This document shows, in pieces, positions 1 through 62,662 of a stretch of DNA of 64,000 bases. This DNA is from an uncultured Planctomycetia bacterium (GTDB lineage Bacteria > Planctomycetota > Planctomycetia > Pirellulales > Pirellulaceae). The stretch lies in the NCBI GenBank assembly GCA_963714965.1, contig CAVQQG010000001.1:1480653-1544652 (forward strand). The letters are read 5' to 3'. The translations under genes and the position numbers were made by a program. Under the pieces are notes generated by a model, which worked only from the letters and a program-made list of their open reading frames with translations, searched no databases and was not told where the DNA came from. How positions within the stretch are numbered: position 1 is the stretch's first letter; every line of letters begins with the position of its first letter.

Positions 1-11
1 CCGGTGGATTC

Positions 12-347
12 ATGTCGCCGATCGGGGAAGATGAATTTGTGGCCGACCTGGCAATCGACATCGGTTACCCGTTGCTGATCGTGGTACCCAATGTGCTGGG
101 ATGCATCAACTACACCATGCAAACCCTGATTGCGGCCGCCTGTTACCGCCAGGGAACTTCGGTCGCCGGTATTGTCATCACTTATCCGGAAGGGTTTGGA
201 GGGGATGTCAGCACGACCACCAACATAGAGGAAATCGCCAAACGCAGCGTGGCCCCGGTACTGGCCAGCGTCCCGTTTGGCGCTGACACGTTCGATCGCG
301 ACGTGGACTGGTTCGCCCTGGCCAGCACCCGGGGCCAGCTGGTATGA
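12..347 (+). CDS. bioD: dethiobiotin synthase-like ATPase (BioD family), C-terminal fragment truncated at the window edge
   Basis: Translation resembles the BioD C-terminal region (VVPNVLGCINYTMQTLIAA). The ORF runs off the 5' window edge. Its stop overlaps the next start (ATGA). Confidence 0.5.
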   Translation: MSPIGEDEFVADLAIDIGYPLLIVVPNVLGCINYTMQTLIAAACYRQGTSVAGIVITYPEGFGGDVSTTTNIEEIAKRSVAPVLASVPFGADTFDRDVDWFALASTRGQLV

Positions 348-877
348 GCTTTATCCGGTATGTCGCCTCCTCGGAAATTCCGGACGCCGACCGAGTCGAT
401 GACAACGACCGTATTATTCAGGTCCACGGCGTGCACAGCCGTTGTATGAAAATGCACCACCAGCTGTATGCCGAATTGATGCGCGGCCCTGGCCCCCTGA
501 CCCTGGTGCAACGCGAAATGGTGGCCACGGTCGTCTCGTCGATCAATCGTTGTCACTACTGAGTGATTCATCACGGGCGCGGTCTGCGCCGGCAACTGGT
601 CCAATCCGGAATGGATCCGGAGGCGGCCAACCAGCTGGCCGGACAACTGACCCGGGACGGGACGGCGGCGGCGCTGGCCGAAATGGACCGCGCCCTGCTG
701 GACTATGCAACACGGTTGACCCGCCAGCCGTGGTCCGTCACGAACGATCACGTCGAGGATTTGCGGCGGGCGGGACTGGACGATCGGGCCATCCATGATC
801 TGTGCGCGATTGTGGCCTACTATGCCTTTGCCAACCGGATTGCCAACGGACTGGGGATCGATGTTGAGACGGCATGA
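344..877 (+). CDS. AhpD-like peroxidase-related protein (carboxymuconolactone decarboxylase family) with an in-frame TGA at 560-562, candidate selenocysteine
   Basis: ORFs 344..562 and 563..877 are in the same frame, separated only by TGA. Joined they read VSSINRCHY-U-VIHHGRG, matching the family motif VSxxNgChYC..H with TGA at the second Cys. A hairpin with a GGUCU loop lies 14 nt downstream. Confidence 0.65.
576..590 (+). promoter_or_regulatory. candidate bacterial SECIS hairpin (5-bp GC stem, GGUCU apical loop) 14 nt after UGA-560
   Basis: ggcgc-ggucu-gcgcc seen directly in the sequence. The loop resembles the GGUC apical loop of the E. coli fdhF SECIS. Confidence 0.35.
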
Positions 878-985
878 GCGCGTTGCACATCCGTATCGCG
901 TCGTTTCGTCCCAAAACGCCGCGGGACACCATGGCAGCACGCCATCCGGGCGACTCGCAATTGCCCTCCGGCTTCCGCCCGGCCC

Positions 986-1870
986 TTACCGGGCAGCCCC
1001 TTCGTCAGCGTCGCTGGAGGCCCGCGGAACCAACCGGTAGGCAACGTACAAACGCACCTCGCCCAACTCCTGACGGAGCCACAGGGGCGAGATATCGTAG
1101 CGCTCCAGCCGGCCGGCAATGAGCGGATGGGTCTTTAGCAAATAATCGAGGGCCGCCGGATGGCAGCCGGGACTGATTCCGCCCCGGGCGTCGGCCCGCT
1201 GCAACAGTTCTGCCAGTTCGGTCGGCGCCTGCGCGAGCTCCGGAACGACGCGGGAGGTCGTTATCCCGGTTACCAAAATGGCCTCTCCTCCCGGAACCGT
1301 CAGATCCAGCATCAATTCCACATGTCGGACGGTCAACCACTCAAAAATTGCGGTCCGCCGCGGATGTTCGGCCCCCAGCGAACGGTCGGCATGGCGGAGC
1401 AACTCCGGCAACAGGTCCGCCGACAAGACCACCTCGCAGGGCGCCAGCCCCGCCAACGCCAGCTCGCCGGCCGCCTGTTCAGCCCGTTTCAGCAGTTTGT
1501 CGTCCGGTTGGACCGCATACTGCTCCAGCAGGTCGCGAACCCCCGTAATATCGCAACCACCGAAGCGGCGAATGCGGGCGCTGGAAAGCATTTTTTGCGC
1601 ATCGACACCCCGGCTCAGCCGGTCGGATTCCAGATCCACCAGGTGGACTTCGTGATGCCGGGCCAGCAGGGTTTCGAGGTTCAAATCGTGACACTCGCCG
1701 GCCCCCAGGACACACACCATCCCCCGTCGCCCGGCGGCCGAATCGCCGGGCAGCAATTGCAAGATCATTTTGCGGTGCGTGACGGCCAGCTCCCAGGGCG
1801 AACTGGAATTTCGTCCCACCAGCGTTTGATGCCGCAGTTGCCCGAGATATTCGTATTTGGATTCCGTCAT
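986..1870 (-). CDS. hypothetical Rossmann-fold protein (possible methyltransferase or dehydrogenase-like)
   Basis: Long ORF with a VCVLGAGECHDL glycine-rich motif. The start could be ATG 1870 or TTG 1915. Confidence 0.45.
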   Translation of the reverse strand: MTESKYEYLGQLRHQTLVGRNSSSPWELAVTHRKMILQLLPGDSAAGRRGMVCVLGAGECHDLNLETLLARHHEVHLVDLESDRLSRGVDAQKMLSSARIRRFGGCDITGVRDLLEQYAVQPDDKLLKRAEQAAGELALAGLAPCEVVLSADLLPELLRHADRSLGAEHPRRTAIFEWLTVRHVELMLDLTVPGGEAILVTGITTSRVVPELAQAPTELAELLQRADARGGISPGCHPAALDYLLKTHPLIAGRLERYDISPLWLRQELGEVRLYVAYRLVPRASSDADEGAAR

Positions 1871-1939
1871 TGGTGTTTTGAAGCTGGCCGTTTCGCGGGG
1901 GGTGCCGTTGTCCAATGCCCCTGCCCCAGGCTGGATATT

Positions 1940-3103
1940 CTAGCGGTCGCGTGTTGGGGTGTCCCCGACCCCGGCGGTGGCGCCGCCCCGCGCCACGATC
2001 AGCAGAACCGCGCCCAGGGTCAGGGCGGCCGCAAATCGGCCAGCCCGGTATGTCGAACCACCAACCAGTTCGTCAATCCACCGCCAGGCGCCAATCTGGA
2101 TCAGTGTCGCCAGGCCCAAAAGGCCCACAGGCGGAACGGTCCGGATCCACCGGCAGGGCGGCCCGCAACGCAACGCCATGCTTGCCAGTCCGCCCATCAG
2201 AACCACCGTGGCCAGGGCTTGCCAGCCCAAAAACAAACCGGTGCTCATCAACCCGGCCCGCAAATAGCCGGGCGGGGGCAGCCGGGACGGCCCCTTGCCA
2301 AACTGCTCCAGAAATTCACCCAGCAGAAAACCGGCCGTCAGCCCCGCGAACCCGGAATCAAACCGGTTCAGCCAGGCCAGCCCCGGCAGCCATGACTCAC
2401 TGCCCTCCATCCATTTGACGGGCTGCAGCCCGGGCAGGATCGCAGGTCCGGCAAATCCCACCAGCACGGCAAACACCATTGTCTGTTGCGGGAGCCGGCT
2501 GCCGTCGCGTTGCATCAGCGCCCAGGCCAGCAACAACGTGACCAGCGTCATATGAAAGGCATAGATGGCGATAACATCCCAGTGGGCGGTCATCACGACT
2601 GGCAATATCCCGGCCGGGTCATGGAGGGCGCCACCAGGCAAGTTGCCGCCGGCCGACATCACTTCCGCCAGAAACACCAGCAGAAAAACCACTCCAAAGA
2701 TTGCCTCGATGATCGGGTAACGGGGCGAAATGGGCAGCCGGCAAACCCGGCACCGTCCGCCCAGTTTCAACCAGCCGATAATCGGAACGTTGTCTGCCAG
2801 CCGAATTTTGGCCGTGCAATGGGGACAGGCCGAACCGTTCGTAATGACCGAAACGCCTCGCGGCATCCGCCACACAACCACATTGATGAAGCTGCCCACC
2901 ATGCTGCCAAAGGCAAAAAACCAGAGGGCAATCAGGATTTCCAGGATCCGTGAACGCGACCATTCCAGACGCAGGGACGCTTGCGGACTGACCGGAATGA
3001 TCGACTCGACCAGCGGCAAGACTCCCATAAACAGCACGATCGCCAGCAACGCGCAGAGCAATCCGCTTTTCCAGAGCTTCCAGCGGCGGCGGCGTCGGGA
3101 CAT
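1940..3103 (-). CDS. prepilin peptidase (A24 family, PilD-like)
   Basis: N-terminal zinc-binding tetracysteine motif (CPHC...GRCRVCR), IPIIGWL, then polytopic membrane domains. Confidence 0.7.
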   Translation of the reverse strand: MSRRRRRWKLWKSGLLCALLAIVLFMGVLPLVESIIPVSPQASLRLEWSRSRILEILIALWFFAFGSMVGSFINVVVWRMPRGVSVITNGSACPHCTAKIRLADNVPIIGWLKLGGRCRVCRLPISPRYPIIEAIFGVVFLLVFLAEVMSAGGNLPGGALHDPAGILPVVMTAHWDVIAIYAFHMTLVTLLLAWALMQRDGSRLPQQTMVFAVLVGFAGPAILPGLQPVKWMEGSESWLPGLAWLNRFDSGFAGLTAGFLLGEFLEQFGKGPSRLPPPGYLRAGLMSTGLFLGWQALATVVLMGGLASMALRCGPPCRWIRTVPPVGLLGLATLIQIGAWRWIDELVGGSTYRAGRFAAALTLGAVLLIVARGGATAGVGDTPTRDR

Positions 3104-3303
3104 GCGGTTGGATCGGGCAAGCGGCGGAACAAATGGCAGCCGAAAAAGCGGTCCGGCGATTGTCGCAAAAACGGGGTGCACTGAAAACGCCGCGGCCGGA
3201 TCCCGGCGCTGCCACGGTCCCACAGACCTGCTTGCGGGCCGGGTTTCGGGGGGTCAAACTGGCGGAAGCCCGGTAATGCCCTGCCCGTCCCGATTCAGGA
3301 AAC

Positions 3304-4545
3304 TTGCTCTGCATGATCCCGTCCGATCCATCGACCTCCGCGTTCACGCAACATTCCGCCATCCGTGTTTGGCAACTGGCGCTGGTACTTGTCGGGTACC
3401 ACAGCGTGGCGGCGACCGATCCGGGGGCCTGGCAGGCAACCGACGGCCCCCCTCAATCCGGACTCAGTCGGGAGGCGGCGACCGAGACCCGTCAGCGGCT
3501 GTGGCAGGATTGGCAAGCGCGGATTCGCGCCGATCACGAATTGGAATGGAACACCAAAAAAATCACCCTGGACCAGCTGGAAATGAAGTTTGAAACGCGG
3601 ACTTTCGGCCAACCTGCCGCAACCGGTCGGCGGCTGTTTATTTCCATGCACGGCGGGGGCGGCGCACCGGCCCGCATTAATGAACAACAATGGCGCAACC
3701 AGATTGGTTTGTACGAGCCTGAGGAAGGCCTGTATCTGGCGCCGCGGGCACCGACGGATCACTGGAATTTGTGGCACGAGCCGCACATCGACCGGTTTTT
3801 CCAGAGGATCATCGGGGACGCGGTCGTGTTCGAACAGGTGGATGCCAACCGCGTCTATTTGTTGGGATATTCGGCGGGCGGTGACGGTGTTTATCAACTG
3901 GCGCCGCGGATGGCGGATCGCTGGGCCGCGGCGGCCATGATGGCGGGTCATCCCAACGACGCCTCCCCCCTGGGATTGCGGAATATCGGGTTTACGCTGC
4001 ACATGGGAGGGGACGATGGCGCCTACGGCCGTAACGAAGTGGCTGCCCGGTGGAAAACCCGTCTGGCCGAACTGCAAGCGGCGGACCCCGATGGCTATCA
4101 ACACTCCGTTACCCTTCACAAGGGACTGGGGCACTGGATGGAGCACCGCGATGACGTGGCCCTGCCCTGGATGGCCGCGTTCCGGCGCGATCCCCGTCCG
4201 CGGCGCGTGGTCTGGCACCAGTCGCCAGTCACGCACGGCCAGTTTTACTGGCTGGCGGTTGATCCCGAAAATGAAATCGCCGGCTCCACAGTGATTGTCG
4301 CGCGGCAGGGGCAAACGATTTCGATTGAACAGGCTGACAAAATTCGGCGACTTACCGTGCTGCTGGACGACGATCTGGTGGATCTGGACCGCCCGGTTAC
4401 TGTTTGCCAGGGGGATCAAGTCCTGTTTCAGGGGATGATTCCTCGCAGTGCCGCAATGCTGCAGGAAACCCTGGAACAACGGGGCGACCGTTATTACATG
4501 TTTCCAGCCAGCGTCACGGTCGATTTGGAAAACGCCGATGACTAA
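3304..4545 (+). CDS. alpha/beta-hydrolase family esterase (carboxylesterase / PHB-depolymerase-like), secreted
   Basis: GYSAGG nucleophile elbow, HGGGG oxyanion region, N-terminal signal-like segment. Confidence 0.7.
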   Translation: MLCMIPSDPSTSAFTQHSAIRVWQLALVLVGYHSVAATDPGAWQATDGPPQSGLSREAATETRQRLWQDWQARIRADHELEWNTKKITLDQLEMKFETRTFGQPAATGRRLFISMHGGGGAPARINEQQWRNQIGLYEPEEGLYLAPRAPTDHWNLWHEPHIDRFFQRIIGDAVVFEQVDANRVYLLGYSAGGDGVYQLAPRMADRWAAAAMMAGHPNDASPLGLRNIGFTLHMGGDDGAYGRNEVAARWKTRLAELQAADPDGYQHSVTLHKGLGHWMEHRDDVALPWMAAFRRDPRPRRVVWHQSPVTHGQFYWLAVDPENEIAGSTVIVARQGQTISIEQADKIRRLTVLLDDDLVDLDRPVTVCQGDQVLFQGMIPRSAAMLQETLEQRGDRYYMFPASVTVDLENADD

Positions 4546-9342: not shown

Positions 9343-9574
9343 CGTTCAAAATCCTGTGCAAAACGGTCCCTGATCAGGCAGAGTGTCGCCTGTCAACCGT
9401 AAATTGAACAGCCGTTTAACCGTTTGGGCCGGGATGCCCCGGGAGCCCCGTTTCTGGAGGGGCAGGCAACGGAAAACGCGGCAGTTTTCAGGGTTCCAAG
9501 CGGTTACCTGTCGCTTGCAAACGCGGTTGGCCGGGAGTCTCATATTCCCGGACCCTTTTCGGCCAGGCAGCAAG

Positions 9575-10006
9575 TTGAAATCTTATCCCGACCAGTTCGA
9601 GGTGTTTTACGATGGCGATTGCCCGTTGTGCCAGCGCGAAATCAACTGGCTGCGGCGGCGGGACCGGCAGCGGCGGATCGTATTTACGGATATTGCCGAC
9701 CCCGGGTTTGACCCGGAGTCGGTGGGAAAATCGTTCCAAACGCTGATGGACCAGATTCACGGCCGCACCCCGGATGGCCGCTGGATTACCGGCGTCGAAG
9801 TCTTTCGGCATCTGTATCATGCGGCCGGATTCGGCAAATTCGTGGCCGTAACCCGGTTGCCGGTGATTCGGCATATGCTTGATACTGGGTATCGCGTATT
9901 TGCCCGTCATCGGTTGCGGTTAACGGGTCGATGCCGCTCCGGGGTTTGCGGTGTCCAGCCGGCCGCCGACAGGATTTCACCCCATCCGGCATCCCGCCAG
10001 ACCTGA
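9575..10006 (+). CDS. thiol-disulfide oxidoreductase DCC family (DUF393)
   Basis: [14 protein letters not shown] motif. The start is uncertain; TTG 9575 is the nearest in-frame start before the domain. Confidence 0.55.
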
Positions 10007-10037
10007 ACACCGGTCGCCATCATTCCGCCCCAGTGCC

Positions 10038-11345
10038 ATGAGAATCGCAATTATCGGGACAGGTATTTCTGGTCTGACCGCTGCCAGCCAACTGCATCAC
10101 CGGCACGAGATCACGGTATTCGAGGCCAACGATCGTATCGGCGGGCATACGAACACCGTTGACGTCGAGTCCCGCGGACGTTCATTGGCGGTCGATACGG
10201 GGTTCATCGTATTTAACGAGCGGACCTACCCCAACTTTTGCGCGTTGATTTCGCAATTGGGTGTTCGCTCCCAGCCGGCCCCCATGACATTCAGCGTTCG
10301 CTGCGACCGCACCAATCTGGAATACCGGGGCGCCGACTTGCGGGGTTTGTTTTCGCAGCGCCGCAATCTGGTCCGACCCCGGTTTTGGCAACTGTTGGCC
10401 GGACTGTTGAAATTCAATCGCGTCGGTCAGGACTTGCTGGGTGACGTTGACAATCGGCAAACCGTGGCCCAGTTTTTTCGCGAGCACCGTTTTCCGGAAA
10501 TCTTCTATCAAAAATATTTTTTGCCCATGGGTTCGGCCGTCTGGTCCTGTTCCCGGGAGCGATTCGAATCCTTCCCGATTCGATTCATTGCTGAGTTCTA
10601 TCACAATCACGGGCTGCTCGGGATGAAAGACCGCCCGCAATGGCGAGTCATCCGCGGAGGATCCCGGCAGTACGTGCAACCGCTGGTTCGGCCATTTCTT
10701 GACCGCATCCGTCTGAGCTCCCCCGTTCTGGCGATCAGCCGCCGGAACGACCCGCCAGCCGACAATCCCGACTGGGGCGAACCGGCAGCCATCCAGGTCG
10801 CGACCCCTTCCGGGACCGAGCCCTTCGATCATGTCATCCTGGCTTGCCACGCCGACCAGGCACTGGCGATTTTGGGTGATCAGGCGACCCCCCTGGAGCG
10901 GGAGATCCTGTCGGCGTTTCCCTATACCCAAAACGAGGCGGTGTTGCACACGGACACCTCGATTTTGCCGCGGCGGCGGGGGGCCTGGGCCAGCTGGAAT
11001 TATCTGATCGACGACCAGGACGATCCAGCCGCGGCCGCGACGTTAACCTATAACATGAATATTCTGCAAACGCTGGATTGCTCCCAGACCTGGTGCGTGA
11101 CGCTGAATAACACGCATCGCCTGGACCCGCACAAAATCGTGCGGAAATTTGAATATTCGCACCCGCTGTTTGACCTGCGCCGAAAATCCATGCAATCCCG
11201 TCACCACGAATTGATCGACTACCGGAACACGTCCTTCTGCGGCGCTTGGTGGGGCAACGGGTTCCACGAAGACGGGGTGGTTAGCGGCCTGGCTGTCGCT
11301 CGTCAGTTACAATCGATGGACACCCTTTGCCAACCCGCGCGGTAG
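10038..11345 (+). CDS. FAD-dependent oxidoreductase (flavin amine oxidase-like)
   Basis: IAIIGTGISGL dinucleotide-binding motif. Conserved partner of the DUF1365 and cfa genes. Confidence 0.85.
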   Translation: MRIAIIGTGISGLTAASQLHHRHEITVFEANDRIGGHTNTVDVESRGRSLAVDTGFIVFNERTYPNFCALISQLGVRSQPAPMTFSVRCDRTNLEYRGADLRGLFSQRRNLVRPRFWQLLAGLLKFNRVGQDLLGDVDNRQTVAQFFREHRFPEIFYQKYFLPMGSAVWSCSRERFESFPIRFIAEFYHNHGLLGMKDRPQWRVIRGGSRQYVQPLVRPFLDRIRLSSPVLAISRRNDPPADNPDWGEPAAIQVATPSGTEPFDHVILACHADQALAILGDQATPLEREILSAFPYTQNEAVLHTDTSILPRRRGAWASWNYLIDDQDDPAAAATLTYNMNILQTLDCSQTWCVTLNNTHRLDPHKIVRKFEYSHPLFDLRRKSMQSRHHELIDYRNTSFCGAWWGNGFHEDGVVSGLAVARQLQSMDTLCQPAR

Positions 11346-11387
11346 GCCTCGTGGTCAGGTTCCCGTTTCCCTGTCGTCAAGATCCTG

Positions 11388-12302
11388 TTGTTTTGGCAGC
11401 CCCTTGTGAACAGCTGCATTTACGAAGGCCGTGTCTTGCATCGCCGGTTTCATCCGGTGCCGCATGCGTTTGCCTACCGGCTGTTCATGTTGTCGCTGGA
11501 TCTGGACGAACTGGACCGCGTATTCAGGAACCGCTGGCTCTGGTCCACAGGCGGATTCAACTGGGCGTGGTGGCGGCGCGGCGATCATCTGGGTGACCCG
11601 GACCAGCCCCTGGCCGAAGCGGTCGGCGATTTCCTGGAATCCCGGGGAATTGCGCGGCCCGATGGCCCCATTCGCCTGCTGACCCAGGTACGCTACCTGG
11701 GGTTTGCCATGAATCCGGTGGCGTTTTTCTATTGCTACGATTCATCGGCCCGATTGCAGCATGTCGTGGCCGAGGTGAACAATACGCCGTGGGGCCAGCA
11801 ACATTGCTATCTGGTGGAACCCGTGCATTTCCAGCCCCTGGCCGAAACGCCGCGCAAGCCTCTGGACAAGGAATTTCATGTCTCTCCCTTCTTGCCGATG
11901 AACATGCAGTATCGCTGGAGGATATCGGCTCCCGAGGATCGCCTGACGATCGGAATCAGCAATTACCAGGGGGATCGCCGGATGTTGTCGGTGGCCATGT
12001 CGCTGACCCGGCAACCCTTGACCGCCGCCAATATGCGGCGGGCGCTGTTACGTTATCCGCTGATGACCGGTCAGATCTTCGCCGGAATTTACTGGCAGGC
12101 GTTTCGTCTGTGGAGGAAACGCGTTCCATTCTTTCCTCATCCCGGACCACCGGCGGGTACCGATTCCCGTCCTGCGGGCGGCGACCGCCCGGTCGAACCC
12201 GCCGTCATTGATTCGCCGCCGAATTCCGTGGTTCCCGTTCACGGGTGTCCTGCGGATCGGGTTCCAACACTGGCGGGGACCGCCAAAGACCAACCTGGGT
12301 GA
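11388..12302 (+). CDS. DUF1365 family protein
   Basis: Typical DUF1365 sequence. Its stop at 12300-12302 abuts the cfa start at 12305. Confidence 0.8.
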
Positions 12303-12304
12303 AC

Positions 12305-13597
12305 ATGTTTGATTCCTTGTTTTCAAGACTGGTTGACGCCCGCCTGCGCAAGTTGCAGGGCGGCCATATCACGCTGATCGACGGGGACCAGCAATGGTGC
12401 TATGGCAACGACGATGCCGAGTTGTCGGTGACGATTCTGGTTCATCATCCACGCTGGTACCGGCGGATCGCTCTGGGGGGCGGAATCGGTGCTGCCGAAG
12501 CGCTGGCCGATGGCGACTGGACCTGTTCGGACCTGACTGCTTTGGTCCGAATCATGATTCGCAATTTACCGGCCGGCGACACGGCCAATGGCCCGTTGAC
12601 CCGGATCCGCCACGCCGCCGAACAGCTTGGACACTGGATGCGACGCAATACGGTGGTCAATGCCCGGCAGAATATCATCCGGCATTACGATCTGAGCAAC
12701 GAGTTTTTCGCGCTGTTTCTGGACCACTCCATGACCTATTCTGCGGCCATTTTTCCCCACCGCGAGGCGTCGTTGCTGGACGGCTCGATGGAGAAAATTG
12801 ACCGGGCCTGCCGCAAGCTGAATTTAAGGCCCTCCGATCATTTGCTGGAAATCGGCACCGGCTGGGGATCTCTGGCCATTCATGCCGCTGAACGATACGG
12901 CTGCCATGTGACCACGACGACGATCTCGGACGAGCAATATGCCTTTGCCCGCCGAAGAATTGATGATGCCGGCCTGACCGGGCAGATTACCCTGCTCCAC
13001 CAGGATTACCGGAATTTGACCGGCCAGTACGACAAGCTGGTTTCGATAGAGATGATCGAAGCAGTGGGCCATCATTACTTTGATGCTTTCTTTCGGCAAT
13101 GCGGCGCACTGCTCAAGCCTGACGGACAGTTGCTGATACAGGCGATAACGATTGTTGACCATCGCTATGAACATCACCGGCGGACCGTCGACTTTATCAA
13201 GCGATTTATTTTCCCGGGCGGTTGCCTGCCATCCGTCGCGGCCCTGTTGAACTCGATGGCCAAAACGTCCCGATTGCGGCTGGTCCACCTTGAGGAGTTT
13301 TCCGCCCATTACGCGGAAACCCTGGCTCGGTGGCGCAAGCGATTCCTGGATCATCTGGACGACGTGCGACAGCTGGGATTTGATGAACGATTCATTCGCA
13401 TCTGGGAGTATTATTTTTGTTACTGCCAGGCGGCATTCCTGGAACGACATGTGAATGTGTCCCAGTTATGGATGGCCGGGCCGGCGGCCATCGTTTCGCC
13501 CGTCGACCAGTCGTTTCAGACAGCCGGCTCGACCCCCGATCCGCAACCGCCTGCGGCAAACCCGGAAGGCGTTTTTGTGGAGTCACCTGCCCGGTGA
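12305..13597 (+). CDS. cfa: cyclopropane-fatty-acyl-phospholipid synthase family methyltransferase
   Basis: SAM-binding motif LEIGTGWGSL and conserved Cfa C-terminal region. Confidence 0.85.
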   Translation: MFDSLFSRLVDARLRKLQGGHITLIDGDQQWCYGNDDAELSVTILVHHPRWYRRIALGGGIGAAEALADGDWTCSDLTALVRIMIRNLPAGDTANGPLTRIRHAAEQLGHWMRRNTVVNARQNIIRHYDLSNEFFALFLDHSMTYSAAIFPHREASLLDGSMEKIDRACRKLNLRPSDHLLEIGTGWGSLAIHAAERYGCHVTTTTISDEQYAFARRRIDDAGLTGQITLLHQDYRNLTGQYDKLVSIEMIEAVGHHYFDAFFRQCGALLKPDGQLLIQAITIVDHRYEHHRRTVDFIKRFIFPGGCLPSVAALLNSMAKTSRLRLVHLEEFSAHYAETLARWRKRFLDHLDDVRQLGFDERFIRIWEYYFCYCQAAFLERHVNVSQLWMAGPAAIVSPVDQSFQTAGSTPDPQPPAANPEGVFVESPAR

Positions 13598-33080: not shown

Positions 33081-33153
33081 GGTGTGGTACGGGACTCGAA
33101 CCCGCAACAGCCAGTTGGGTAAACTGGTGCTCTTCCGGTTGAGCTAACCGCGC
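33081..33153 (-). pseudogene. degenerate tRNA-like element (probable tRNA pseudogene)
   Basis: Good D-arm (GCTC-AACCGGAA-GAGC), anticodon stem, V-loop and consensus T-arm (GCGGG-TTCGAGT-CCCGT). The acceptor stem has two C.A mismatches. The anticodon loop UUACCCA gives A34 and C37, which is non-canonical. No CCA. Confidence 0.35.
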
Positions 33154-48983: not shown

Positions 48984-49424
48984 TTGACTGCCAGTCTCCC
49001 CTGCAATCCGGTTCGCGCGATGTTTGAAAGTACTCTGGATTGGTTGCCGTTTCTGGTCGCAGGCGGTGTATTGGTGACCGTTTGGCTGGTGTTGCGGAAC
49101 AAGGCGACGGCCCTGAATTCGACCGCTGAGTTTGACCGGCATATTGGGCGTGGCAAACCGGTTGTGTTGAAATTTTTTGCCAATACGTGAGGCCGGTGCC
49201 TGGCGTCCACGCCCATCGTGAATGGGATCGAACAGGACTTGCAGGGTCAGGCGGATGTGGTTCGCATCAACAAGTTGACGAGTCTGGGCCGGGAACTGGC
49301 CCGGCGTTACGATGTCACATCGGCCACGACCACGCTGGTGCTCGACAAGGACGGAACGGTCATCTATCGCCATGCGGGGTTGCCCAGTCGCAGCCAGGTC
49401 GTCGAAGCCGTTCAATCCGCCTGA
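48984..49424 (+). CDS. membrane-anchored thioredoxin-like protein with an in-frame TGA at 49188-49190 replacing the first Cys of WCxxC; candidate selenoprotein
   Basis: ORFs 48984..49190 and 49218..49424 share one frame with no stop other than TGA. The joined protein reads VVLKFFANT-U-GRCLASTPIVNGI...TTTLVLDKDGTV, which matches the thioredoxin fold (DFWAEWCGPCKMIAPI...PTLLLFKNGEV). Confidence 0.6.
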
Positions 49425-49526: not shown

Positions 49527-49892
49527 TTAAATGCTGGTTGAGCCCCAGCGCGCAAAAAAATCGGCCGGATCCACCGCAATGGACTCTTCCGGAGTTTTCC
49601 CCTGATACAACGAGAGCAGGATCACGATCAGGCCCTTGACGATCAGTGAGTCACTGTCGGCGTAAATGCTAATCGGTTGACCGGCCGTATCATCGGGCGA
49701 TTGCGGTTCTATCGCCAGCCAGACAGTGCTCATACAGCCCTGGACCTTGTTGGCCTCGGTTTGGTAACGGCTGTTCAGGGGAGGAAGCTCGCGCCCCAGG
49801 TCGAGCAGGAATTCGTATTTGTCTTGCCAGTCCTGCAAGTCCTCAAAAGTATCCCGGATCTCGTCCTGGCTGGGGGGAAACGGGTCGCTCAT
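49527..49892 (-). CDS. sufE: cysteine desulfuration protein SufE
   Basis: VQGCMSTVWL active-site motif; about 120 aa. Confidence 0.8.
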   Translation of the reverse strand: MSDPFPPSQDEIRDTFEDLQDWQDKYEFLLDLGRELPPLNSRYQTEANKVQGCMSTVWLAIEPQSPDDTAGQPISIYADSDSLIVKGLIVILLSLYQGKTPEESIAVDPADFFARWGSTSI

Positions 49893-50040
49893 CGGGCCAT
49901 AACCGGATTGACAGACACTGGTTTGAAAATCGGGAACATCACGCCCCGCTTGACTAATGCTAGTCGCCTGGCGTCCAAAAGAAAACGGCCGTTGCCGGAA
50001 TACGCGGCCTGTCACGCCCTGATCCGGATTGCGCCGGCAT

Positions 50041-50072
50041 AATAAAAAACCCGGTTGCCAGGCAACCGGGTT
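50041..50072 (-). terminator. rho-independent terminator for the minus-strand gene ending at 50141
   Basis: Perfect 10-bp stem aacccggttg/caaccgggtt with a 5-nt loop, followed on the minus strand by UUUUUUAUU. Confidence 0.55.
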
Positions 50073-50140
50073 CTCGGTGACTATCCAGTCTATTGCAATC
50101 GCAGCGGGCCGGATTCCCGGCCCGCCGCATTGAATCAGGG

Positions 50141-50824
50141 CTAAAAACCAATTCGGATTCCCAGTCCACGATGACCCAGCGTGATGCCGCCACCCTCGTT
50201 CGGGAACACCGAACCATGACCGCGGCCTCGGCCATAACCACCGGCATGTGTTGTCGGGTAAGGCCCCCGGGCGTAATCGTAACCGGTTCGAAATGAAATT
50301 CCCGGAGGATGGTAAAGCTGATGTCCCCGGGCGACGGGCGAAATGATCGCGGGCGGCGGCAATGGGGCCACCAGGGCGTCCAGCATGCAGTGAACGAGAT
50401 CCCGGACCGCCGCCAGTCGACGGCCAACCTCGATACTGCAATACGAGATGGGAGGATCGAGCCCCCGTTCAGCGCGAAAATGGGCATTCTCGATCTGACT
50501 TTCCAGTCGGTGCACCAGTTGATCCAACCGGTCAATTTCCGTCGCCCACTGGCAGCCCGAACCATGGCGGGCCATGCCGCGCAAATACAGGGACTTGGCC
50601 TTGATACGGGCGCTGGTCGCCATGATTTCGCCAAAGTTCCGACTTGGCACATAGTAGTCGATCAGGGTGCGATCCATTTCGACCATTGAAAAATAAACGG
50701 CGTTGGCCTTGGCACGCAGGATGTCATATTCATGATCCGCCTGTGCCGTGCCGGTAAATGCCAATCCGGCGGCAACGGCCACCAGACCGGCGGCTGTCTT
50801 AAGTATTTGTTTTTGTATCATCAT
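50141..50824 (-). CDS. secreted hypothetical protein
   Basis: Signal peptide (AAGLVAVAAGLAFTGTAQA). Confidence 0.5.
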   Translation of the reverse strand: MMIQKQILKTAAGLVAVAAGLAFTGTAQADHEYDILRAKANAVYFSMVEMDRTLIDYYVPSRNFGEIMATSARIKAKSLYLRGMARHGSGCQWATEIDRLDQLVHRLESQIENAHFRAERGLDPPISYCSIEVGRRLAAVRDLVHCMLDALVAPLPPPAIISPVARGHQLYHPPGISFRTGYDYARGPYPTTHAGGYGRGRGHGSVFPNEGGGITLGHRGLGIRIGF

Positions 50825-55566: not shown

Positions 55567-58089
<2,523 letters not shown>

Positions 58090-58108
58090 TCAGCGGGATG
58101 GCCGGGTA

Positions 58109-58495
58109 TCAGGTTCGAATGGTTCCGACCCGGAATCGCAGGGCCCGAATCCCGGCGTTGGGCAATGCCTCACGGATTTGTTGCAGCAGTTGAGCTTTTT
58201 CGAATCCCAATTGTTGCAACGCCGGCGAACTGTCGACGATGATTTCCAGGATACCCCGTCGAATCAGGGTGGCCTGCGTTTTGCCGGCATACCGGGCACC
58301 GGTCACTTTTTGCCAGGCAGCCTGCAATTCATCCTGGAACAACTCCTGGGTAAATCCGCGCCGCGAAATCAGCTTGCTGAGCAGTTCGGCCGAGGATTTG
58401 GGTTTGCGTTCGAATCGGCGGCGGCTTTCAAACTGCTCCATTGCCCGCCGGTCACCGTCCTGATCGTCATCGTAAATAGTCATGGTCCGGTTCAA
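58109..58495 (-). CDS. DUF721 domain protein (DciA-like), typical of the dnaN-gyrB locus
   Basis: Position and size. Its stop overlaps the dnaN stop region. Confidence 0.65.
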   Translation of the reverse strand: MNRTMTIYDDDQDGDRRAMEQFESRRRFERKPKSSAELLSKLISRRGFTQELFQDELQAAWQKVTGARYAGKTQATLIRRGILEIIVDSSPALQQLGFEKAQLLQQIREALPNAGIRALRFRVGTIRT

Positions 58496-59610
58496 CGGCG
58501 ATCCCGGGACAACGGCATGATGACATAACCGTACTTGTCATCCGTTTGACAGTAGGCGGCCTGTTCGCCGTTTTCCACGTCAAACGTAAATGACTTGTCC
58601 GGCTGCAGGACTTTCAGGAAATCCGCCACATAGCGGTGGTCCAGCGTGATCGTAATCTCTTCCTTGTCGTCATAGGCGATGGGCAATTCGATCCGCGACT
58701 GTCCCACTTCGGCCGTGCTGTTGGACAACACCAGGGAGCCGTTCTTGAACGTGAAATCCACACCCCGGCTTTCCTCACTGGCCACAATCGCCGCCTGCCG
58801 GAGGGCCGAATACATCGGACCGACGGGCAAGTCGATTTTGCTGGAATCGACCCGCTGGGGCAGCACTTCGCGCCATTTGGGAAACCGGCCTTCGACCAGC
58901 CGGGTGTAAAACACACCGTTTCGGTGCCTGACCAGCAGTTCGTTTTCACGAGGCGCGAACTGGACCGGTTCGTCACCCGCCGGAATCGTTCGTTCAATCA
59001 GTTGCATGGCTCGCGAGGGCACGATGGTGGTTTGGCCGGCGGCGGGATGGCCGTGGACCGTCACCGGGGCTTCCATCTTGGCCAGTCGCCGTCCATCGGT
59101 GCCCACCGCGGTCAAGATCTGATCGTTGACCTCCAGCAGAACACCACTCAACGCATAGCGGCTGCTCTCGGCGTCGGTCGCAAACAACGTCCGCTTGATC
59201 AACTCCCGCAATACGCCGGCCGGCACCTCATAGTAATCTTCGTCCGTGAAATCGACGACATCGGGGAATTCGTCCGGGTTTTGGCCCTGCAGTTCAAACC
59301 GCGATTGTTTGCCGGTTACCAGAATCTTGCTGGCGTCGGCCGTGATTTCCAGCTGCTCGTCAGCGGACTCGCGAAGAATGGCATTCAGCCGGGTGACAGG
59401 AATCACGGCCGCGCCCGGACTGTGCACCTGGACATCTTGCACCGATATACGGACACCCACTTCCATGTCCGTGGCGGTCAGTCGAACCGAATCACCGGCC
59501 GCTTCCAGTTTCACATTCTGCAAAATGGTCTTGGGACTGCGGGCCGGCGCGACGATGGCTGCGATTTGAAAAATCTGGGCAAATGGTTCACGCTTGATGG
59601 TAATTTTCAC
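58492..59610 (-). CDS. dnaN: DNA polymerase III beta sliding clamp
   Basis: Three-domain clamp similarity; VKITIKRE N-terminus (GTG start). Confidence 0.9.
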   Translation of the reverse strand: MKITIKREPFAQIFQIAAIVAPARSPKTILQNVKLEAAGDSVRLTATDMEVGVRISVQDVQVHSPGAAVIPVTRLNAILRESADEQLEITADASKILVTGKQSRFELQGQNPDEFPDVVDFTDEDYYEVPAGVLRELIKRTLFATDAESSRYALSGVLLEVNDQILTAVGTDGRRLAKMEAPVTVHGHPAAGQTTIVPSRAMQLIERTIPAGDEPVQFAPRENELLVRHRNGVFYTRLVEGRFPKWREVLPQRVDSSKIDLPVGPMYSALRQAAIVASEESRGVDFTFKNGSLVLSNSTAEVGQSRIELPIAYDDKEEITITLDHRYVADFLKVLQPDKSFTFDVENGEQAAYCQTDDKYGYVIMPLSRDRR

Positions 59611-59640
59611 GGAGTTTGACTTTCTGTTTTTCCGAACCAA

Positions 59641-59976
59641 CGGAGGAGTGGACCGGTCAACCAGTTGACCAGTTCATAAAACAAAACATGTATTCAGCAG
59701 TAGTAACAGTGTTCCGGACAAAATGTTGAATGCCGGTCTGACAGATCAAAAAACAACGGGTTTCATGAGGCCGATGATCGCGTGACGGCGGGGAAAACAT
59801 GTTGAAGCCCTGGTATTCCTGTGTTATCGGACTTTCAATCGCGTGTTAATCCATGGTCCGGGGAGAGCGATTTGTTGGAATCCGGGGCCAGACGGACAAA
59901 CAGCAACAATACATCAACAGGTTCTCCGGCGGGTGACAGTCGTTTACTTCCACAGCTGGTCAGGAGTCAGGTATCT
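59641..59976. other. candidate oriC: low-GC dnaA-dnaN intergenic spacer
   Basis: Clearly AT-richer than the flanks. Imperfect DnaA-box-like 9-mers (e.g. TTCCACAGC, TGTTATCGG). Sits between dnaA and dnaN. Confidence 0.4.
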
Positions 59977-61164
59977 TCAAGGGGCAAGCCGTTTCTCCAG
60001 TTTCTGCCGCAACAAATCCAGTGCTTCGCCGAGCGCAGGATCGGTGCCGCGTTGTGCGGCAATCACGCGGCAGGCATGACGGATCGTGGACGCATCGCGC
60101 TGGCCCAACAGCTGGCCAATCCGGGAAAATCCCGCCGAAAACTCGACCCGCGCCAGCCAGGCCACCACGCTGCGGGCCCGAACCAGTGGCCGTTGGCGAC
60201 CGGGCCCGGTCAGGTCGCTGACCCGCAATCGAAAATGGCGAGCGACCATCTTCAACAGAATCGCGAAATGCCGCGGATCCATTTCGGGACGGACGTGCTG
60301 CAACAGATTTTCCAGCCGGCGTCGCGGAATGTGCGTCGGGCAACCGGCGTTATCGATTGCCAATCGCGACAAGGCCCGACAAATGAGCGGGACTGAGCGG
60401 GGCAACGTGTCGACCAGCCATTCCAGATCCGGAGGATCGATGTTCAGGTCCAGTCGCTCAAGCAATTGCTCGACCAGCCTGGACCGGGCCGCTCGTCCCG
60501 GCGGCTGCACCGAAATCGACAATCCGGCCGACAAGCGGGATCGTAATGGCTGGGGTAACGCGTGATCGGCAAACGGGGCCGTCAGCATCGTGACCAGGAC
60601 CGGGCGTTGCCGCTGGTTGAACTGGTCCAGCAACTGGGTCCATTCCCGAGCGAGTGCGGAGTGGTTGGCCGGCAGCGTCAAATCATCCACCAGCAGCGTG
60701 TCATACGCCACAAGGTGCTCGTGGAACTGTGCCAGCGACCGCGTCGCACAGGCCTTGCGAAATTCACGAGCAAACTCCGTGCCTGATGTTCGCAGCCAGC
60801 GGCCCGGCAACCGGCGAACCAGCAGCTCGGCCAAAGTCGTCTTGCCCACACCCGAGGGGCCATACAAAACCAGTGGCCAGCGGACACCCGGAATTTCCGC
60901 CGTTGTGCCGCGACGGGTAACCGATTCCGAACACCATAACTGTAACAGGGGGTTGGATTGATCCGCGTAATAACGATTCAGCAGAAACGGGCCGGCAGGC
61001 GTTTGCGGTTGACCAACGACCAAACTCCGCTGGTCCGTGAGCGGGCCCGTGGACCAGCCGGGACCGTCGCGCAAGGGGATCGCAGGAAATGAAAAAACAG
61101 CTGCCGACACGGATTCCGAAATCCAACTGAAGATGACGTTCAGACGCCCGCCAAACCGCCCCAC
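59977..61164 (-). CDS. dnaA: chromosomal replication initiator DnaA (divergent N-terminus)
   Basis: AAA+ Walker A LYGPSGVGKTTL. C-terminal domain-IV helix-turn-helix (RPLVRARSVVAWLAR...). Confidence 0.8.
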   Translation of the reverse strand: MGRFGGRLNVIFSWISESVSAAVFSFPAIPLRDGPGWSTGPLTDQRSLVVGQPQTPAGPFLLNRYYADQSNPLLQLWCSESVTRRGTTAEIPGVRWPLVLYGPSGVGKTTLAELLVRRLPGRWLRTSGTEFAREFRKACATRSLAQFHEHLVAYDTLLVDDLTLPANHSALAREWTQLLDQFNQRQRPVLVTMLTAPFADHALPQPLRSRLSAGLSISVQPPGRAARSRLVEQLLERLDLNIDPPDLEWLVDTLPRSVPLICRALSRLAIDNAGCPTHIPRRRLENLLQHVRPEMDPRHFAILLKMVARHFRLRVSDLTGPGRQRPLVRARSVVAWLARVEFSAGFSRIGQLLGQRDASTIRHACRVIAAQRGTDPALGEALDLLRQKLEKRLAP

Positions 61165-61237: not shown

Positions 61238-62443
61238 CTAATTTCTTCCGCTTTTTCCTCGACGTAAATGCTTGACGGCATTGATGATACGATTCGCAGC
61301 CTGGACGCTTTCGGCCGGCGTGTTCTGGCGGCTGAAACTGATCCGCAGGGAACTGCTGATCACCCGCGATTCCAGGCCCATGGCTTGCAAGACATGGGAT
61401 GGTTCGCTGGATCCGCTGGCGCATGCCGAACCGGTCGATATCGCCAGGCCCGCCATATCACAGGCCAGCATCAGCGGCTGTCGTTCGACGGCTGGAATGC
61501 CGGAATTACCCGGAAATGCGATATTGGAACAATGCGGGGCCCGGGGTCCGGCCCCACCGTTGATTCGGCAGTCGGGCAGGCCGGCCCCAACAGCTTCCTC
61601 GAACGCATCGCGCAGTGACTGCAAATAGTGGGGGTTGGTTGCCAGATGCGTGTCCGCCAGCATCAGGGCCTCGGCAAATCCAACCGCCAAAGCCACATCT
61701 TCGGTTCCCGGCCGCAAGCCCAGTTGCTGAAAGCCGCCAAATAACAGGGGCGTCAATTCGCGATGCGATCCACTGAGCACCAGGGCCCCAATGCCTCGCG
61801 GCCCATGCAATTTGTGGGCCGTCAGACTCAACGCCGTAACCCCGGCGGCCGCCAGCTCCCGGAAACGAACCGGTATTTTGCCAACCGCCTGAACGGCATC
61901 GCAGTGCATGGGGATATTCCGCCGCGCGCAAATCCGGGCGGCTTCGGCAACCGGCTGAATATTGCCGGTTTCGTTATTAACCATCATCAAACTGACCAAC
62001 CGGGTTCGCTCGTCGAGCAACCGGGGCAGCACGTCCAGGCGAGCACATCCCTGCGAATCGACCGGCAACCGGCGGACCTCCCATCCGCGTGAGCCGAGAA
62101 CGGAGACGGCCGTCAATATGCTGGGATGCTCGATCGTGGAAACCACAATGTTCGGCCGCTGCGGTTCCGTGTGAACCGCCAGCCCTCCCCGACACCAGCC
62201 CAGCAACGCCAGGTTGTTGGCCTCGGTACCACCACTGGTGAAGATCAACCGGTCATCCGGCCCCAGGTCAAGCCGCTCGCCTATTTGATGACGAGCCTGC
62301 TCCAGCCGCGCCGCGGCCTGTTGACCCGGTCGATGCTGGCTGGCCGGATTGACATAGCCCGCCCGGTAACACGCGATCATCGCCTCGCCAACCAGCGGGT
62401 CCAGTCGGGTCGTCGAGCAGGCATCCAGGTAAATCGGGTTCAT
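61238..62443 (-). CDS. cysteine desulfurase (NifS/IscS family, PLP-dependent)
   Basis: Lysine region SLTAHKLHGP and C-terminal active-site Cys loop STGSACASG. Confidence 0.85.
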   Translation of the reverse strand: MNPIYLDACSTTRLDPLVGEAMIACYRAGYVNPASQHRPGQQAAARLEQARHQIGERLDLGPDDRLIFTSGGTEANNLALLGWCRGGLAVHTEPQRPNIVVSTIEHPSILTAVSVLGSRGWEVRRLPVDSQGCARLDVLPRLLDERTRLVSLMMVNNETGNIQPVAEAARICARRNIPMHCDAVQAVGKIPVRFRELAAAGVTALSLTAHKLHGPRGIGALVLSGSHRELTPLLFGGFQQLGLRPGTEDVALAVGFAEALMLADTHLATNPHYLQSLRDAFEEAVGAGLPDCRINGGAGPRAPHCSNIAFPGNSGIPAVERQPLMLACDMAGLAISTGSACASGSSEPSHVLQAMGLESRVISSSLRISFSRQNTPAESVQAANRIINAVKHLRRGKSGRN

Positions 62444-62662
62444 CAATCCTACAGGGCCGGGTGCTGAGGAGTCCGGAAACAGGTGCCCGTCGTGTCCCGG
62501 TGGAACAAGACAGTGTAGGCGCCAGTCCGTCAAAAACCAGCTGTTTTGACGCTGCCCAACGGTCTTGCTGCAACGGCCCGGCTTTTTCATACTGCCGGAA
62601 TCCCCAATGATATCCTGCGGCTGATTGCCAGGACGACCGACTTGCCCCCATAGTATCCCCTA

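What the first reader, a model, noticed from the sequence alone, without database searches (positions are those of the whole stretch)
344..877. AhpD-like gene with in-frame UGA at the catalytic CxxC position: candidate selenoprotein
The two ORFs 344..562 and 563..877 are one reading frame interrupted only by TGA (560-562). The joined product reads VSSINRCHY-[TGA]-VIHHGRG. In the AhpD-like peroxidase-related family the equivalent stretch is VSxxNgChYC..H, so the stop falls exactly on the second, resolving redox Cys. Cys/Sec pairs at redox motifs are the hallmark of real selenoproteins. A 5-bp GC hairpin with apical loop GGUCU (576-590) starts 14 nt downstream, comparable to the GGUC loop of the E. 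coli fdhF SECIS. The alternative is a nonsense pseudogene, but the downstream half remains open and conserved.
Basis: partly seen in the sequence, partly recalled or inferred. Interest (0 to 1): 0.75.

Follow-up and report, generated by a model that had tools for sequence, protein, structure and literature searches.

The report
AhpD-like selenoprotein gene, known family
The apparent stop codon inside this small antioxidant-type gene almost certainly encodes selenocysteine, but the gene belongs to a selenoprotein family catalogued since 2005, so it is real and ordinary.

Summary
Window 344..877 (+) is one reading frame broken only by TGA at 560-562. The joined 177-aa product scores 110 bits on TIGR01926 'peroxidase-related enzyme' (cutoff 81.8).

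The TGA lies on the second Cys of the CxxC motif, giving C70-H-Y-U73. Glu58 and His77 complete the AhpD proton relay.

In 80 related loci from a dozen or more phylum-level groups, 79 carry TGA at exactly this codon and one carries TGC. None carries TAA or TAG.

The hairpin at 576-590 (loop GGUCU) meets all four published bacterial SECIS criteria. It shows compensatory changes in planctomycete relatives. The matching hairpin in the other phyla shows strong synonymous-codon constraint.

A second gene in the window (49020..49424) has the same signature. It is thioredoxin-like with a UxxC motif, and TGA is conserved in 42/42 relatives. This is indirect evidence that the genome decodes Sec.

No selA, selB, selD or tRNA-Sec lies in these 64 kb, so the machinery itself remains unverified.

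The family (AhpD-like, COG2128/TIGR01926, CxxU) was described in 2005 and is listed in current selenoprotein catalogues. Novelty is low.

The parts
344..877 (+). Complete AhpD-like (TIGR01926 peroxidase-related) selenoprotein gene, 177 codons including Sec73. The real stop is TGA at 875-877.
   Evidence: Homologues span the whole length across the TGA.
560..562 (+). In-frame UGA, read as selenocysteine (Sec73). It takes the place of the second Cys of the CxxC motif (C-H-Y-U).
   Evidence: TGA at the same codon in 79/80 related loci and TGC in one.
576..590 (+). bSECIS-type hairpin with 5-bp stem GGCGC/GCGCC and apical loop GGUCU (581-585). The loop is formed by the conserved Gly codon GGU plus CU of the Leu codon.
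   Evidence: dG -8.3. Covariation in 11 planctomycete-type sequences: 3 of 5 pairs have compensatory changes, 0/500 shuffles reach the score. Meets the consensus criteria quoted in PMC13188914.
551..553 (+). Codon for Cys70, first residue of the CxxU redox motif.
515..517 (+). Codon for Glu58, 12 residues before Cys70. This is the proton-relay Glu, equivalent to Glu118 in Mtb AhpD and Glu36 in PA0269.
   Evidence: spacing compared with PMC3141380
572..574 (+). Codon for His77 (Sec+4). This is the proton-relay His, equivalent to His137 in Mtb AhpD and His55 in PA0269.
   Evidence: HH is invariant in the Sec-containing relatives.
12..347 (+). Context only: 3' part of the upstream BioD-like gene (Pfam AAA_26). 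Its stop overlaps the ATG of the selenoprotein gene (ATGA), which suggests co-transcription and coupled translation.
   Evidence: The same upstream family is found in 6 loci including the window.

Best explanation
Window 344..877 is a single intact gene for an AhpD-like (TIGR01926, CMD-fold) thiol/selenol oxidoreductase. UGA 560-562 is decoded as selenocysteine. Inferred mechanism of decoding: when the ribosome reaches the UGA, the mRNA hairpin at 576-590 presents its GGU loop 18 nt downstream. The loop recruits SelB-GTP-Sec-tRNASec, which outcompetes release factor 2, and Sec73 is inserted. Inferred mechanism of the protein: Cys70 and Sec73 form a CxxU redox pair at the start of a helix. Glu58, His77 and Tyr72 form the AhpD-type proton relay that keeps the selenol deprotonated. 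By analogy with Cys133 of M. tuberculosis AhpD, Sec73 is the exposed nucleophile. It would attack an oxidised partner (a peroxiredoxin sulfenate or disulfide) or a hydroperoxide directly, and Cys70 would resolve the intermediate into a selenenylsulfide that cellular reductants then reduce. Shown here: one frame, family membership, catalytic-site alignment, conservation of TGA and only TGA across phyla, a conserved and co-varying hairpin, and a second gene with the same signature in the same genome. Inferred: actual Sec insertion, presence of selABCD elsewhere in the genome, and the substrate.
For: Single frame with one internal TGA. TIGR01926 scores 110.1 bits against a cutoff of 81.8, and Pfam CMD gives 3.8e-14. 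Solved 'peroxidase-related' structures 2oyo, 3c1l and 2pfx align across the motif at E = 1e-19 to 1e-21. The TGA aligns with the second Cys of CxYC. Among the protein-database hits, 13 are C-terminal fragments of 100-113 aa; seven of them start exactly one residue after the TGA position, the signature of gene callers tripping on the same codon. In 80 genome loci from Planctomycetota, Gemmatimonadota, Acidobacteriota, Chloroflexota, Marinimicrobia, Zixibacteria, Ignavibacteria, Lentisphaeria and others, there are 79 TGA, 1 TGC and no TAA or TAG, with about 50% identity on both sides. Only 11/79 have a canonical start codon directly after the TGA, so re-initiation is not conserved. The window hairpin meets all four bSECIS criteria (loop 3-9 nt, stem of at least 4 bp, G in the first two loop positions, 16-37 nt spacing, dG at or below -7.5). 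The planctomycete-type hairpin has 3 of 5 pairs with compensatory changes and a covariation score reached by 0/500 shuffles. The other-phyla hairpin is 97% paired. Codon choice there is strongly skewed: CGT 87% against a 10% background, CTC 90% against 36%, GCG 96% against 36%. The loop and 3' arm share GGUCUGC with the E. coli fdhF SECIS, whose sequence was verified. TGA is otherwise an ordinary stop in this window, including for gyrB, dnaN and dnaA. A second TGA-containing redox gene lies at 49020..49424 with UxxC, TGA in 42/42 relatives, and a hairpin with an A-U to G-C compensatory change. The family is an established selenoprotein family.
Against: No selA, selB, selD or tRNA-Sec occurs in the 64-kb window, so the decoding machinery of this genome is unverified. 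The hairpin is short (5 bp). Its local folding energy is not better than shuffled sequence (z = -0.2 to -1.1). Best-hairpin energy does not separate Sec forms from the four Cys forms whose DNA I could read. Part of the hairpin could therefore be a by-product of the G-L-R-R coding sequence in GC-rich DNA. No Rfam family matches. I found no direct experimental demonstration of selenium in any member of this clade in the papers read. The substrate is unknown, and no conserved gene neighbour such as a peroxiredoxin appeared across the 80 loci.
Confidence: 0.9

Rival explanations
1. Nonsense pseudogene or assembly error: an ancestral TGC (Cys) codon mutated or was misread as TGA, and the gene is dead in this genome.
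For: TGC to TGA is a single-base change. One relative (L053) has TGC. No Sec machinery is visible in the window.
Against: 79 independent assemblies from many phyla carry the same TGA and none carries TAA or TAG. Both halves stay conserved at about 50% identity with all catalytic residues intact. Synonymous sites in the downstream hairpin are under strong constraint. A second gene in the window shows the same pattern.
Confidence: 0.02
2. Genuinely split gene: translation stops at UGA 560 to give a 72-aa peptide, re-initiates at GTG 563 to give a 104-aa peptide, and the two assemble without selenium.
For: GTG directly follows the TGA in this window. Gene callers predict such C-terminal fragments in many metagenomes.
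Against: Only 11 of 79 relatives have ATG, GTG or TTG at +1, and in most the next in-frame start lies 11-45 codons downstream. A split would remove the catalytic residue at exactly the CxxC position. A true stop would drift among TGA, TAA and TAG, yet only TGA is seen.
Confidence: 0.03
3. UGA is read through as a standard amino acid (for example Cys or Trp by near-cognate tRNA, or a lineage-wide UGA reassignment) rather than as Sec.
For: Some bacterial lineages do reassign UGA. Near-cognate suppression of UGA is known from general knowledge (not tested here).
Against: TGA terminates about half of the ORFs in the window, including Pfam-supported gyrB, dnaN, dnaA and a CMAS-type methyltransferase, so there is no reassignment. 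The relatives come from many phyla with the standard code. The conserved hairpin with a G-rich loop at SECIS spacing is unexplained by simple read-through. The position is a redox Cys, the hallmark of Sec use.
Confidence: 0.04

Closest known systems
AhpD-like selenoprotein family (COG2128 YciW / TIGR01926 'peroxidase-related enzyme', CxxU). First reported from the Sargasso Sea metagenome in 2005; 'AhpD-like 1' in the GOS survey.
   Same: The family HMM scores above its curated cutoff. The motif is CxxU with Sec at the second position (PMC1088965 Table 3; PMC13188914 table). Cys homologues are widespread. A bSECIS with G in the apical loop lies directly downstream of the UGA.
   Different: Nothing essential. 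The planctomycete-type hairpin is shifted 2 nt in register relative to the hairpin in most other phyla. It is centred on GGUCU rather than CGGGU, while the same G22-G23 stay unpaired in both.
Mycobacterium tuberculosis AhpD (TIGR00777) and the AhpC/AhpD peroxidase system
   Same: CMD/AhpD helical core. It has the E-x11-C-x-x-C-x3-H proton relay, here E58, C70, Y72, U73 and H77. The second position of the motif is the exposed nucleophile in Mtb AhpD.
   Different: TIGR00777 scores only 18.8 bits against a cutoff of 191.95, so this is not an AhpD orthologue. Sec replaces Cys133. The third motif residue is Tyr, as in PA0269, not His. No peroxiredoxin was seen among the ORFs scanned with Pfam within 10 kb (ORFs under 300 aa only partly covered), and none is conserved in 80 related loci.
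Solved 'uncharacterized peroxidase-related' proteins 2oyo, 2pfx, 3c1l (Mlr4105), 2prr, 6k40, and P. aeruginosa PA0269
   Same: The three shown residue by residue (2oyo, 3c1l, 2pfx) align over residues about 24-172 at E = 1e-19 to 1e-21, including the VSxxNxCxYC..HG block; 6k40 and 2prr match more weakly (1e-16, 3e-14). PA0269 has the identical relay E36/C48/Y50/C51/H55 and weak peroxidase activity.
   Different: All of these are Cys forms. No selenoprotein member has a solved structure among the hits.
E. coli fdhF SECIS element
   Same: A hairpin in the coding sequence directly 3' of the UGA. The apical GGUC loop and the shared heptamer GGUCUGC are present (sequence verified, window).
   Different: The window hairpin has only 5 bp and no bulged U. 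The fdhF element is a two-part stem of about 40 nt. SelB binding is untested.
AhpD-related CFYUT (seleno)protein NF041238 and YciW-related (seleno)protein NF053654
   Same: Related CMD-fold proteins, also with Sec at the second motif position (family names).
   Different: Scores are far below the cutoffs: 52.3 against 175 and 19.2 against 310. The window gene is not a member.

Membership tests
AhpD-like selenoprotein (TIGR01926 / COG2128, CxxU form) | Protein matches the family profile above the curated threshold | tested here: met
   TIGR01926 scores 110.1 bits against a cutoff of 81.8, E = 1e-31, with U replaced by C for the scan. Pfam CMD PF02627 scores 52.9 bits against 23.
AhpD-like selenoprotein (TIGR01926 / COG2128, CxxU form) | In-frame UGA at the second position of the CxxC redox motif (CxxU) | tested here: met
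   C70-H-Y-U73. The motif as given in PMC1088965 and PMC13188914.
AhpD-like selenoprotein (TIGR01926 / COG2128, CxxU form) | Sec/Cys pairing: orthologues carry TGA or a Cys codon at the same site, with conservation on both sides | tested here: met
   79 TGA plus 1 TGC in 80 loci. Full-length Cys homologues P0001, P0002 and P0006-P0016.
AhpD-like selenoprotein (TIGR01926 / COG2128, CxxU form) | AhpD proton-relay residues: Glu 12 residues before the first Cys, His 4 residues after the second | tested here: met
   Glu58 and His77 by position, compared with Glu118/His137 and Glu36/His55 in PMC3141380.
AhpD-like selenoprotein (TIGR01926 / COG2128, CxxU form) | Selenium actually incorporated at residue 73 | not testable with these tools
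   Needs 75Se labelling or mass spectrometry.
Bacterial SECIS element (consensus model of Zhang and Gladyshev as summarised in PMC13188914) | Apical loop of 3-9 nt on an upper stem of 4-16 bp | tested here: met
   5-nt loop and 5-bp stem at 576-590.
Bacterial SECIS element (consensus model of Zhang and Gladyshev as summarised in PMC13188914) | G in one of the first two loop positions, usually followed by G or U | tested here: met
   The loop is GGUCU. G22 and G23 are invariant in the planctomycete-type alignment, and in the other phyla G23 is invariant and G22 at least 90% conserved.
Bacterial SECIS element (consensus model of Zhang and Gladyshev as summarised in PMC13188914) | 16-37 nt between the UGA and the apical loop | tested here: met
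   18 nt (563-580).
Bacterial SECIS element (consensus model of Zhang and Gladyshev as summarised in PMC13188914) | Free energy at or below -7.5 kcal/mol | tested here: met
   -8.3 kcal/mol for 576-590 alone. This is not better than shuffled controls of the larger context.
Bacterial SECIS element (consensus model of Zhang and Gladyshev as summarised in PMC13188914) | Structure conserved through compensatory change | tested here: met
   3 of 5 pairs with changes on both sides, 8 cells, 0/500 shuffles. Codon-choice skew in the other-phyla hairpin.
Bacterial SECIS element (consensus model of Zhang and Gladyshev as summarised in PMC13188914) | Binds SelB and directs Sec insertion | not testable with these tools
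   Needs a reporter or binding assay.
Sec-decoding trait of the host genome | selA, selB, selD and tRNA-Sec (selC) present | tested here: inconclusive
   None occurs in the 64-kb window: ARAGORN and Rfam find only tRNA-His and one odd tRNA, and Pfam scans of 28 ORFs of at least 300 aa plus 12 shorter ORFs found none. The rest of the genome is not available. A second conserved TGA-containing redox gene in the window is indirect support.
AhpD proper (TIGR00777, partner of AhpC) | Matches the AhpD equivalog-level profile | tested here: not met
   18.8 bits against a cutoff of 191.95.
AhpD proper (TIGR00777, partner of AhpC) | Genetic linkage to ahpC or a peroxiredoxin | tested here: not met
   No peroxiredoxin domain among the Pfam-scanned neighbours (ORFs under 300 aa within 10 kb only partly covered). 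No conserved neighbour family in 80 related loci.

The most novel reading that the evidence does not exclude
The SECIS of this family appears to have been rebuilt in a different register in Pirellulales-type planctomycetes. The stem pairs columns 17-21 with 27-31 and the loop is GGUCU. In the other phyla the stem pairs columns 14-19 with 25-30 and the loop is CGGGU. In both, the same two guanines of the near-invariant Gly codon stay unpaired at a fixed distance from the UGA. If real, the only fixed SelB determinant here is GG at +19/+20 from the UGA, and the helix can migrate around it. In addition, this HHGxGLRR clade may be an almost obligately Sec-dependent stand-alone peroxidase or reductase with no AhpC partner.
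Probability: 0.3. Interest if true: 0.3.

Novelty: new member of a known kind. Interest (0 to 1): 0.15.

Why it matters
The practical value is correct annotation. Gene finders split this gene into a 72-aa and a 104-aa ORF, or prefer the longer antisense ORF at 182..940. Many database entries for the family are such C-terminal fragments. Recognising it, together with the thioredoxin-like gene at 49020..49424, marks this probably planctomycete genome as a selenium user. It also predicts selA, selB, selC and selD elsewhere in the genome. It adds no new biology beyond the known AhpD-like CxxU selenoprotein family, whose physiological substrate remains unknown.

Tried and rejected
- **Rfam.** Gathering thresholds on the whole window, and a permissive scan of 520-660, found no SECIS family. 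The only result was a chance-level DUF3085 RNA hit.
- **Thermodynamic significance.** The hairpin context has z = -0.2 to -1.1, which is not informative in 60% GC coding sequence.
- **Hairpin energy, Sec forms against Cys forms.** Four Cys forms (L053, L081-L083) have hairpins of -6.4 to -8.7 kcal/mol, against a median of -8.9 for the Sec forms. Energy does not discriminate; loop content and covariation do. DNA for P0006 could not be fetched.
- **Conserved gene neighbours across 80 loci.** No family is shared by more than 10 loci, so there is no conserved partner.
- **Sec machinery in the window.** None was found.
- **Source genome.** The C-terminal ORF is not on record in the assembly index. 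There is no plasmid match for 1-4000.
- **Second candidate gene.** The word-indexed protein search found nothing, and the first metagenome scan with a single protein found nothing. An alignment of 16 sequences was too divergent for pattern design. The C-terminal half alone, followed by a 5-sequence alignment, worked.
- **Other TGA read-through candidates.** Those from my scans (for example 5208, 8404, 22446, 50687) look like adjacent genes or antisense frames without redox motifs and were dropped.
- **Minus-strand ORF 182..940.** It has no Pfam match and is judged spurious.

Full report
**Observation.** The + strand from 344 to 877 translates as one 177-codon frame with a single internal stop. 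This is TGA at 560-562, in the context ...VATVVSSINRCHY*VIHHGRGLRR.... The ATG at 344 overlaps the stop of the upstream gene as ATGA. That gene is a BioD-like ORF matching Pfam AAA_26. The N-terminus MSFIRY matches the MAFIRY/MAFIDY start of relatives, so the start is correct. On the minus strand a 252-aa ORF (182..940) covers the gene, but it has no family match and is typical antisense noise in 60% GC DNA.

**Family.** With U replaced by C, the product scores 110.1 bits on NCBIfam TIGR01926 'peroxidase-related enzyme' (cutoff 81.8) and 52.9 bits on Pfam CMD.
- It is not an orthologue of AhpD proper: TIGR00777 scores 18.8 against a cutoff of 191.95.
- It is not a member of the NF041238 or NF053654 (seleno)protein families either.
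- Solved 'uncharacterized peroxidase-related' proteins 2oyo, 3c1l and 2pfx align at E = 1e-19 to 1e-21 across the block VSxxNxCxYC..HG.
- The TGA falls on the second Cys of that CxYC motif.
- Glu58 lies 12 residues before Cys70 and His77 lies 4 residues after the TGA. Together with Tyr72 they reproduce the proton relay described for M. tuberculosis AhpD (Glu118, Cys130, His132, Cys133, His137) and for PA0269 (Glu36, Cys48, Tyr50, Cys51, His55) (PMC3141380).

**Comparative evidence for Sec.** In the protein database, 13 of 29 hits are C-terminal fragments of 100-113 aa. Seven begin exactly one residue after the TGA position ([V/M][V/Q/A]HHGRGL...), which is what gene callers produce when they meet the same in-frame TGA. 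A scan of one genome per species returned 570 confirmed relatives. The best 80 loci come from Pirellulaceae and other Planctomycetota, Gemmatimonadota, Acidobacteriota, Chloroflexota, Marinimicrobia/Fidelibacterota, Zixibacteria, Ignavibacteria, Lentisphaeria, Calditrichaceae, Synergistaceae and others.
- 79 of the 80 have TGA at exactly this codon and one (L053) has TGC. None has TAA or TAG.
- Identity is about 50% on both sides of the TGA.
- Only 11 of 79 have ATG, GTG or TTG directly after the TGA, so re-initiation is not a conserved feature.
- TGA is an ordinary terminator in this window, including for gyrB, dnaN and dnaA. A reassigned code is therefore excluded.

**The RNA element.** It satisfies the four constraints of the published bacterial SECIS model (PMC13188914). 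These are a loop of 3-9 nt on a stem of at least 4 bp, G in the first two loop positions followed by G or U, 16-37 nt from the UGA (here 18), and dG at or below -7.5. Its loop and 3' arm share GGUCUGC with the E. coli fdhF SECIS, whose sequence I verified against 5,419 E. coli genomes.

Relatives fall into two hairpin classes.
- **Planctomycete type.** The window and ten Planctomycetota loci encode H-x-R-G-L-R and pair columns 17-21 with 27-31. Three of five pairs show compensatory changes, such as G-C to U-A and C-G to G-C or A-U. 80% of cells are paired, against 22-53% when the partner is slid. No shuffle in 500 reaches the covariation score.
- **Other phyla.** The other 69 loci encode H-G-A-G-L-R and pair columns 14-19 with 25-30 around the loop CGGGU. 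97% of cells are paired, with G-C to A-U compensation in four.
- **Shared feature.** Both classes leave the same two guanines, G22 and G23 of the Gly codon, unpaired.
- **Codon choice in the 69 loci is heavily skewed toward pairing.** Arg is CGT in 87% against a 10% background, Leu is CTC in 90% against 36%, Ala is GCG in 96% against 36%, and His is CAC in 69/69.

There are three caveats.
- The context folding energy is not better than shuffles, with z = -0.2 to -1.1.
- Four Cys-form genes have hairpins of similar energy. One of them (L081) keeps the same stem with an AUCU loop, which may be a SECIS remnant.
- Rfam has no matching family.

**Sec machinery.** The window has no tRNA-Sec. No SelA, SelB or SelD domains occur among the 28 ORFs of at least 300 aa or the 12 shorter ORFs scanned. 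That covers 64 kb around the replication origin (dnaA, dnaN, gyrB at 55.5-61.2 kb) and says nothing about the rest of the genome. The window's genome is not in the assembly index.

Indirect support came from my own scan for TGA-interrupted frames with coding-like composition. Besides the AhpD-like gene, it found one convincing case at 49020..49424 (+), with TGA at 49188-49190.
- The product has an N-terminal membrane helix followed by KPVVLKFFANT-U-GRC. It matches Pfam Thioredoxin across the TGA (37.5 bits against 23.5).
- Full-length homologues have CxxC at that site. Most database relatives are fragments of 66-80 aa, and the ones I aligned start just after it.
- All 42 metagenomic relatives fetched carry TGA at the same codon.
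- The downstream hairpin CCCAU-CGUGA-AUGGG (49212-49226) is 100% paired in 37 distinct sequences. It shows an A-U to G-C double change in five.

Two unrelated genes with this signature in one 64-kb window make a Sec-decoding genome the economical explanation.

**Mechanism.** Decoding is inferred to follow the standard bacterial route. SelB-GTP-Sec-tRNASec is recruited by the hairpin immediately 3' of the UGA. For the enzyme, PMC6626918 summarises that in M. tuberculosis AhpD it is Cys133, the second motif Cys, that is exposed and forms the mixed disulfide with AhpC Cys61, while Cys130 is partly buried. Sec73 therefore occupies the attacking position and Cys70 the resolving one. The same paper reports the opposite emphasis for B. 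thailandensis AhpD, so the assignment is an inference. The substrate is unknown. No peroxiredoxin or other partner is conserved next to the gene in 80 loci, and none was seen among the ORFs scanned with Pfam within 10 kb here, though the ORFs under 300 aa there were only partly covered.

**Comparison with the known.** AhpD-like proteins (COG2128) with a CXXU motif were reported as a new selenoprotein family from the Sargasso Sea in 2005, with 27 sequences (PMC1088965). They were the fourth most abundant family in the GOS survey, with 299 Sec forms and 902 Cys homologues (PMC2398784). They are listed as 'AhpD-like protein, TIGR01926, CxxU' in a 2026 review (PMC13188914), appear in the 2022 review (PMC9312934), and are browsable in BSepDB. 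The window gene meets every sequence-level criterion for that family. It is therefore a new member of a known kind.

**Verdict.** I put 0.9 on genuine Sec coding. Novelty and interest are low (0.15). The only mildly new point is the 2-nt register difference between the planctomycete-type and other-phyla hairpins around a fixed GG.

Noticed in passing
window 49020..49424 (+); TGA 49188-49190; hairpin 49212-49226: A second likely selenoprotein gene. It encodes a membrane-anchored thioredoxin-fold protein with a U-G-R-C (UxxC) motif. Pfam Thioredoxin matches across the TGA. All 42 metagenome relatives (L084-L125) have TGA at the same codon. The hairpin CCCAU-CGUGA-AUGGG is conserved, with an A-U to G-C compensatory change in 5 loci. 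No NCBIfam model reaches its cutoff.
   Followed up: yes
window 33081..33153 (-): A tRNA-like gene called tRNA-Gly with the unusual anticodon ACC. It has a pyrimidine at position 37 and two mismatches in the acceptor stem, and scores 45.9 bits on Rfam tRNA. It may be a pseudo-tRNA or a mis-assigned anticodon. It is not a tRNA-Sec.
   Followed up: partly
window 182..940 (-): An antisense ORF of 252 aa that is longer than either half of the split selenoprotein gene. It has no family match. A length-based gene caller would prefer it and hide the real gene.
   Followed up: partly
window 55567..61164 (-): gyrB, dnaN and a short DnaA-like gene lie in a row, so the window probably spans the chromosomal replication origin region. 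A class-V aminotransferase (61238..62590, cysteine desulfurase or selenocysteine lyase type) lies next to dnaA, and a SufE-domain protein lies at 49527..50441.
   Followed up: no
L081:1001-1540 (Cys-form homologue P0002): This TGC (Cys) homologue keeps a 5-bp hairpin in nearly the same place as the window's SECIS (shifted by 1 nt), but with loop AUCU instead of GGUCU. It may be a fossil SECIS after a Sec-to-Cys conversion.
   Followed up: no
proteins P0003, P0004, P0005 (closest full-length database homologues, about 50% identity): These have lost part or all of the redox motif (SRYC, CKYS, TRYA) while keeping the rest of the protein. This suggests a non-redox offshoot of the clade.
   Followed up: no
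L078:3217-3264 (Planctomycetota MAG): This Sec form lacks the family hairpin at the usual place. Instead it has GCGGCUU-GAAA-AAGCUGU a few nucleotides further 3', which may be an alternative SECIS.
   Followed up: no
window 9383..10006 (+): A DCC1-like thiol-disulfide oxidoreductase gene lies 8.5 kb from the AhpD-like gene, followed by an amine-oxidase/DUF1365/cyclopropane-fatty-acid-synthase-like cluster at 9951..13597.
   Followed up: no
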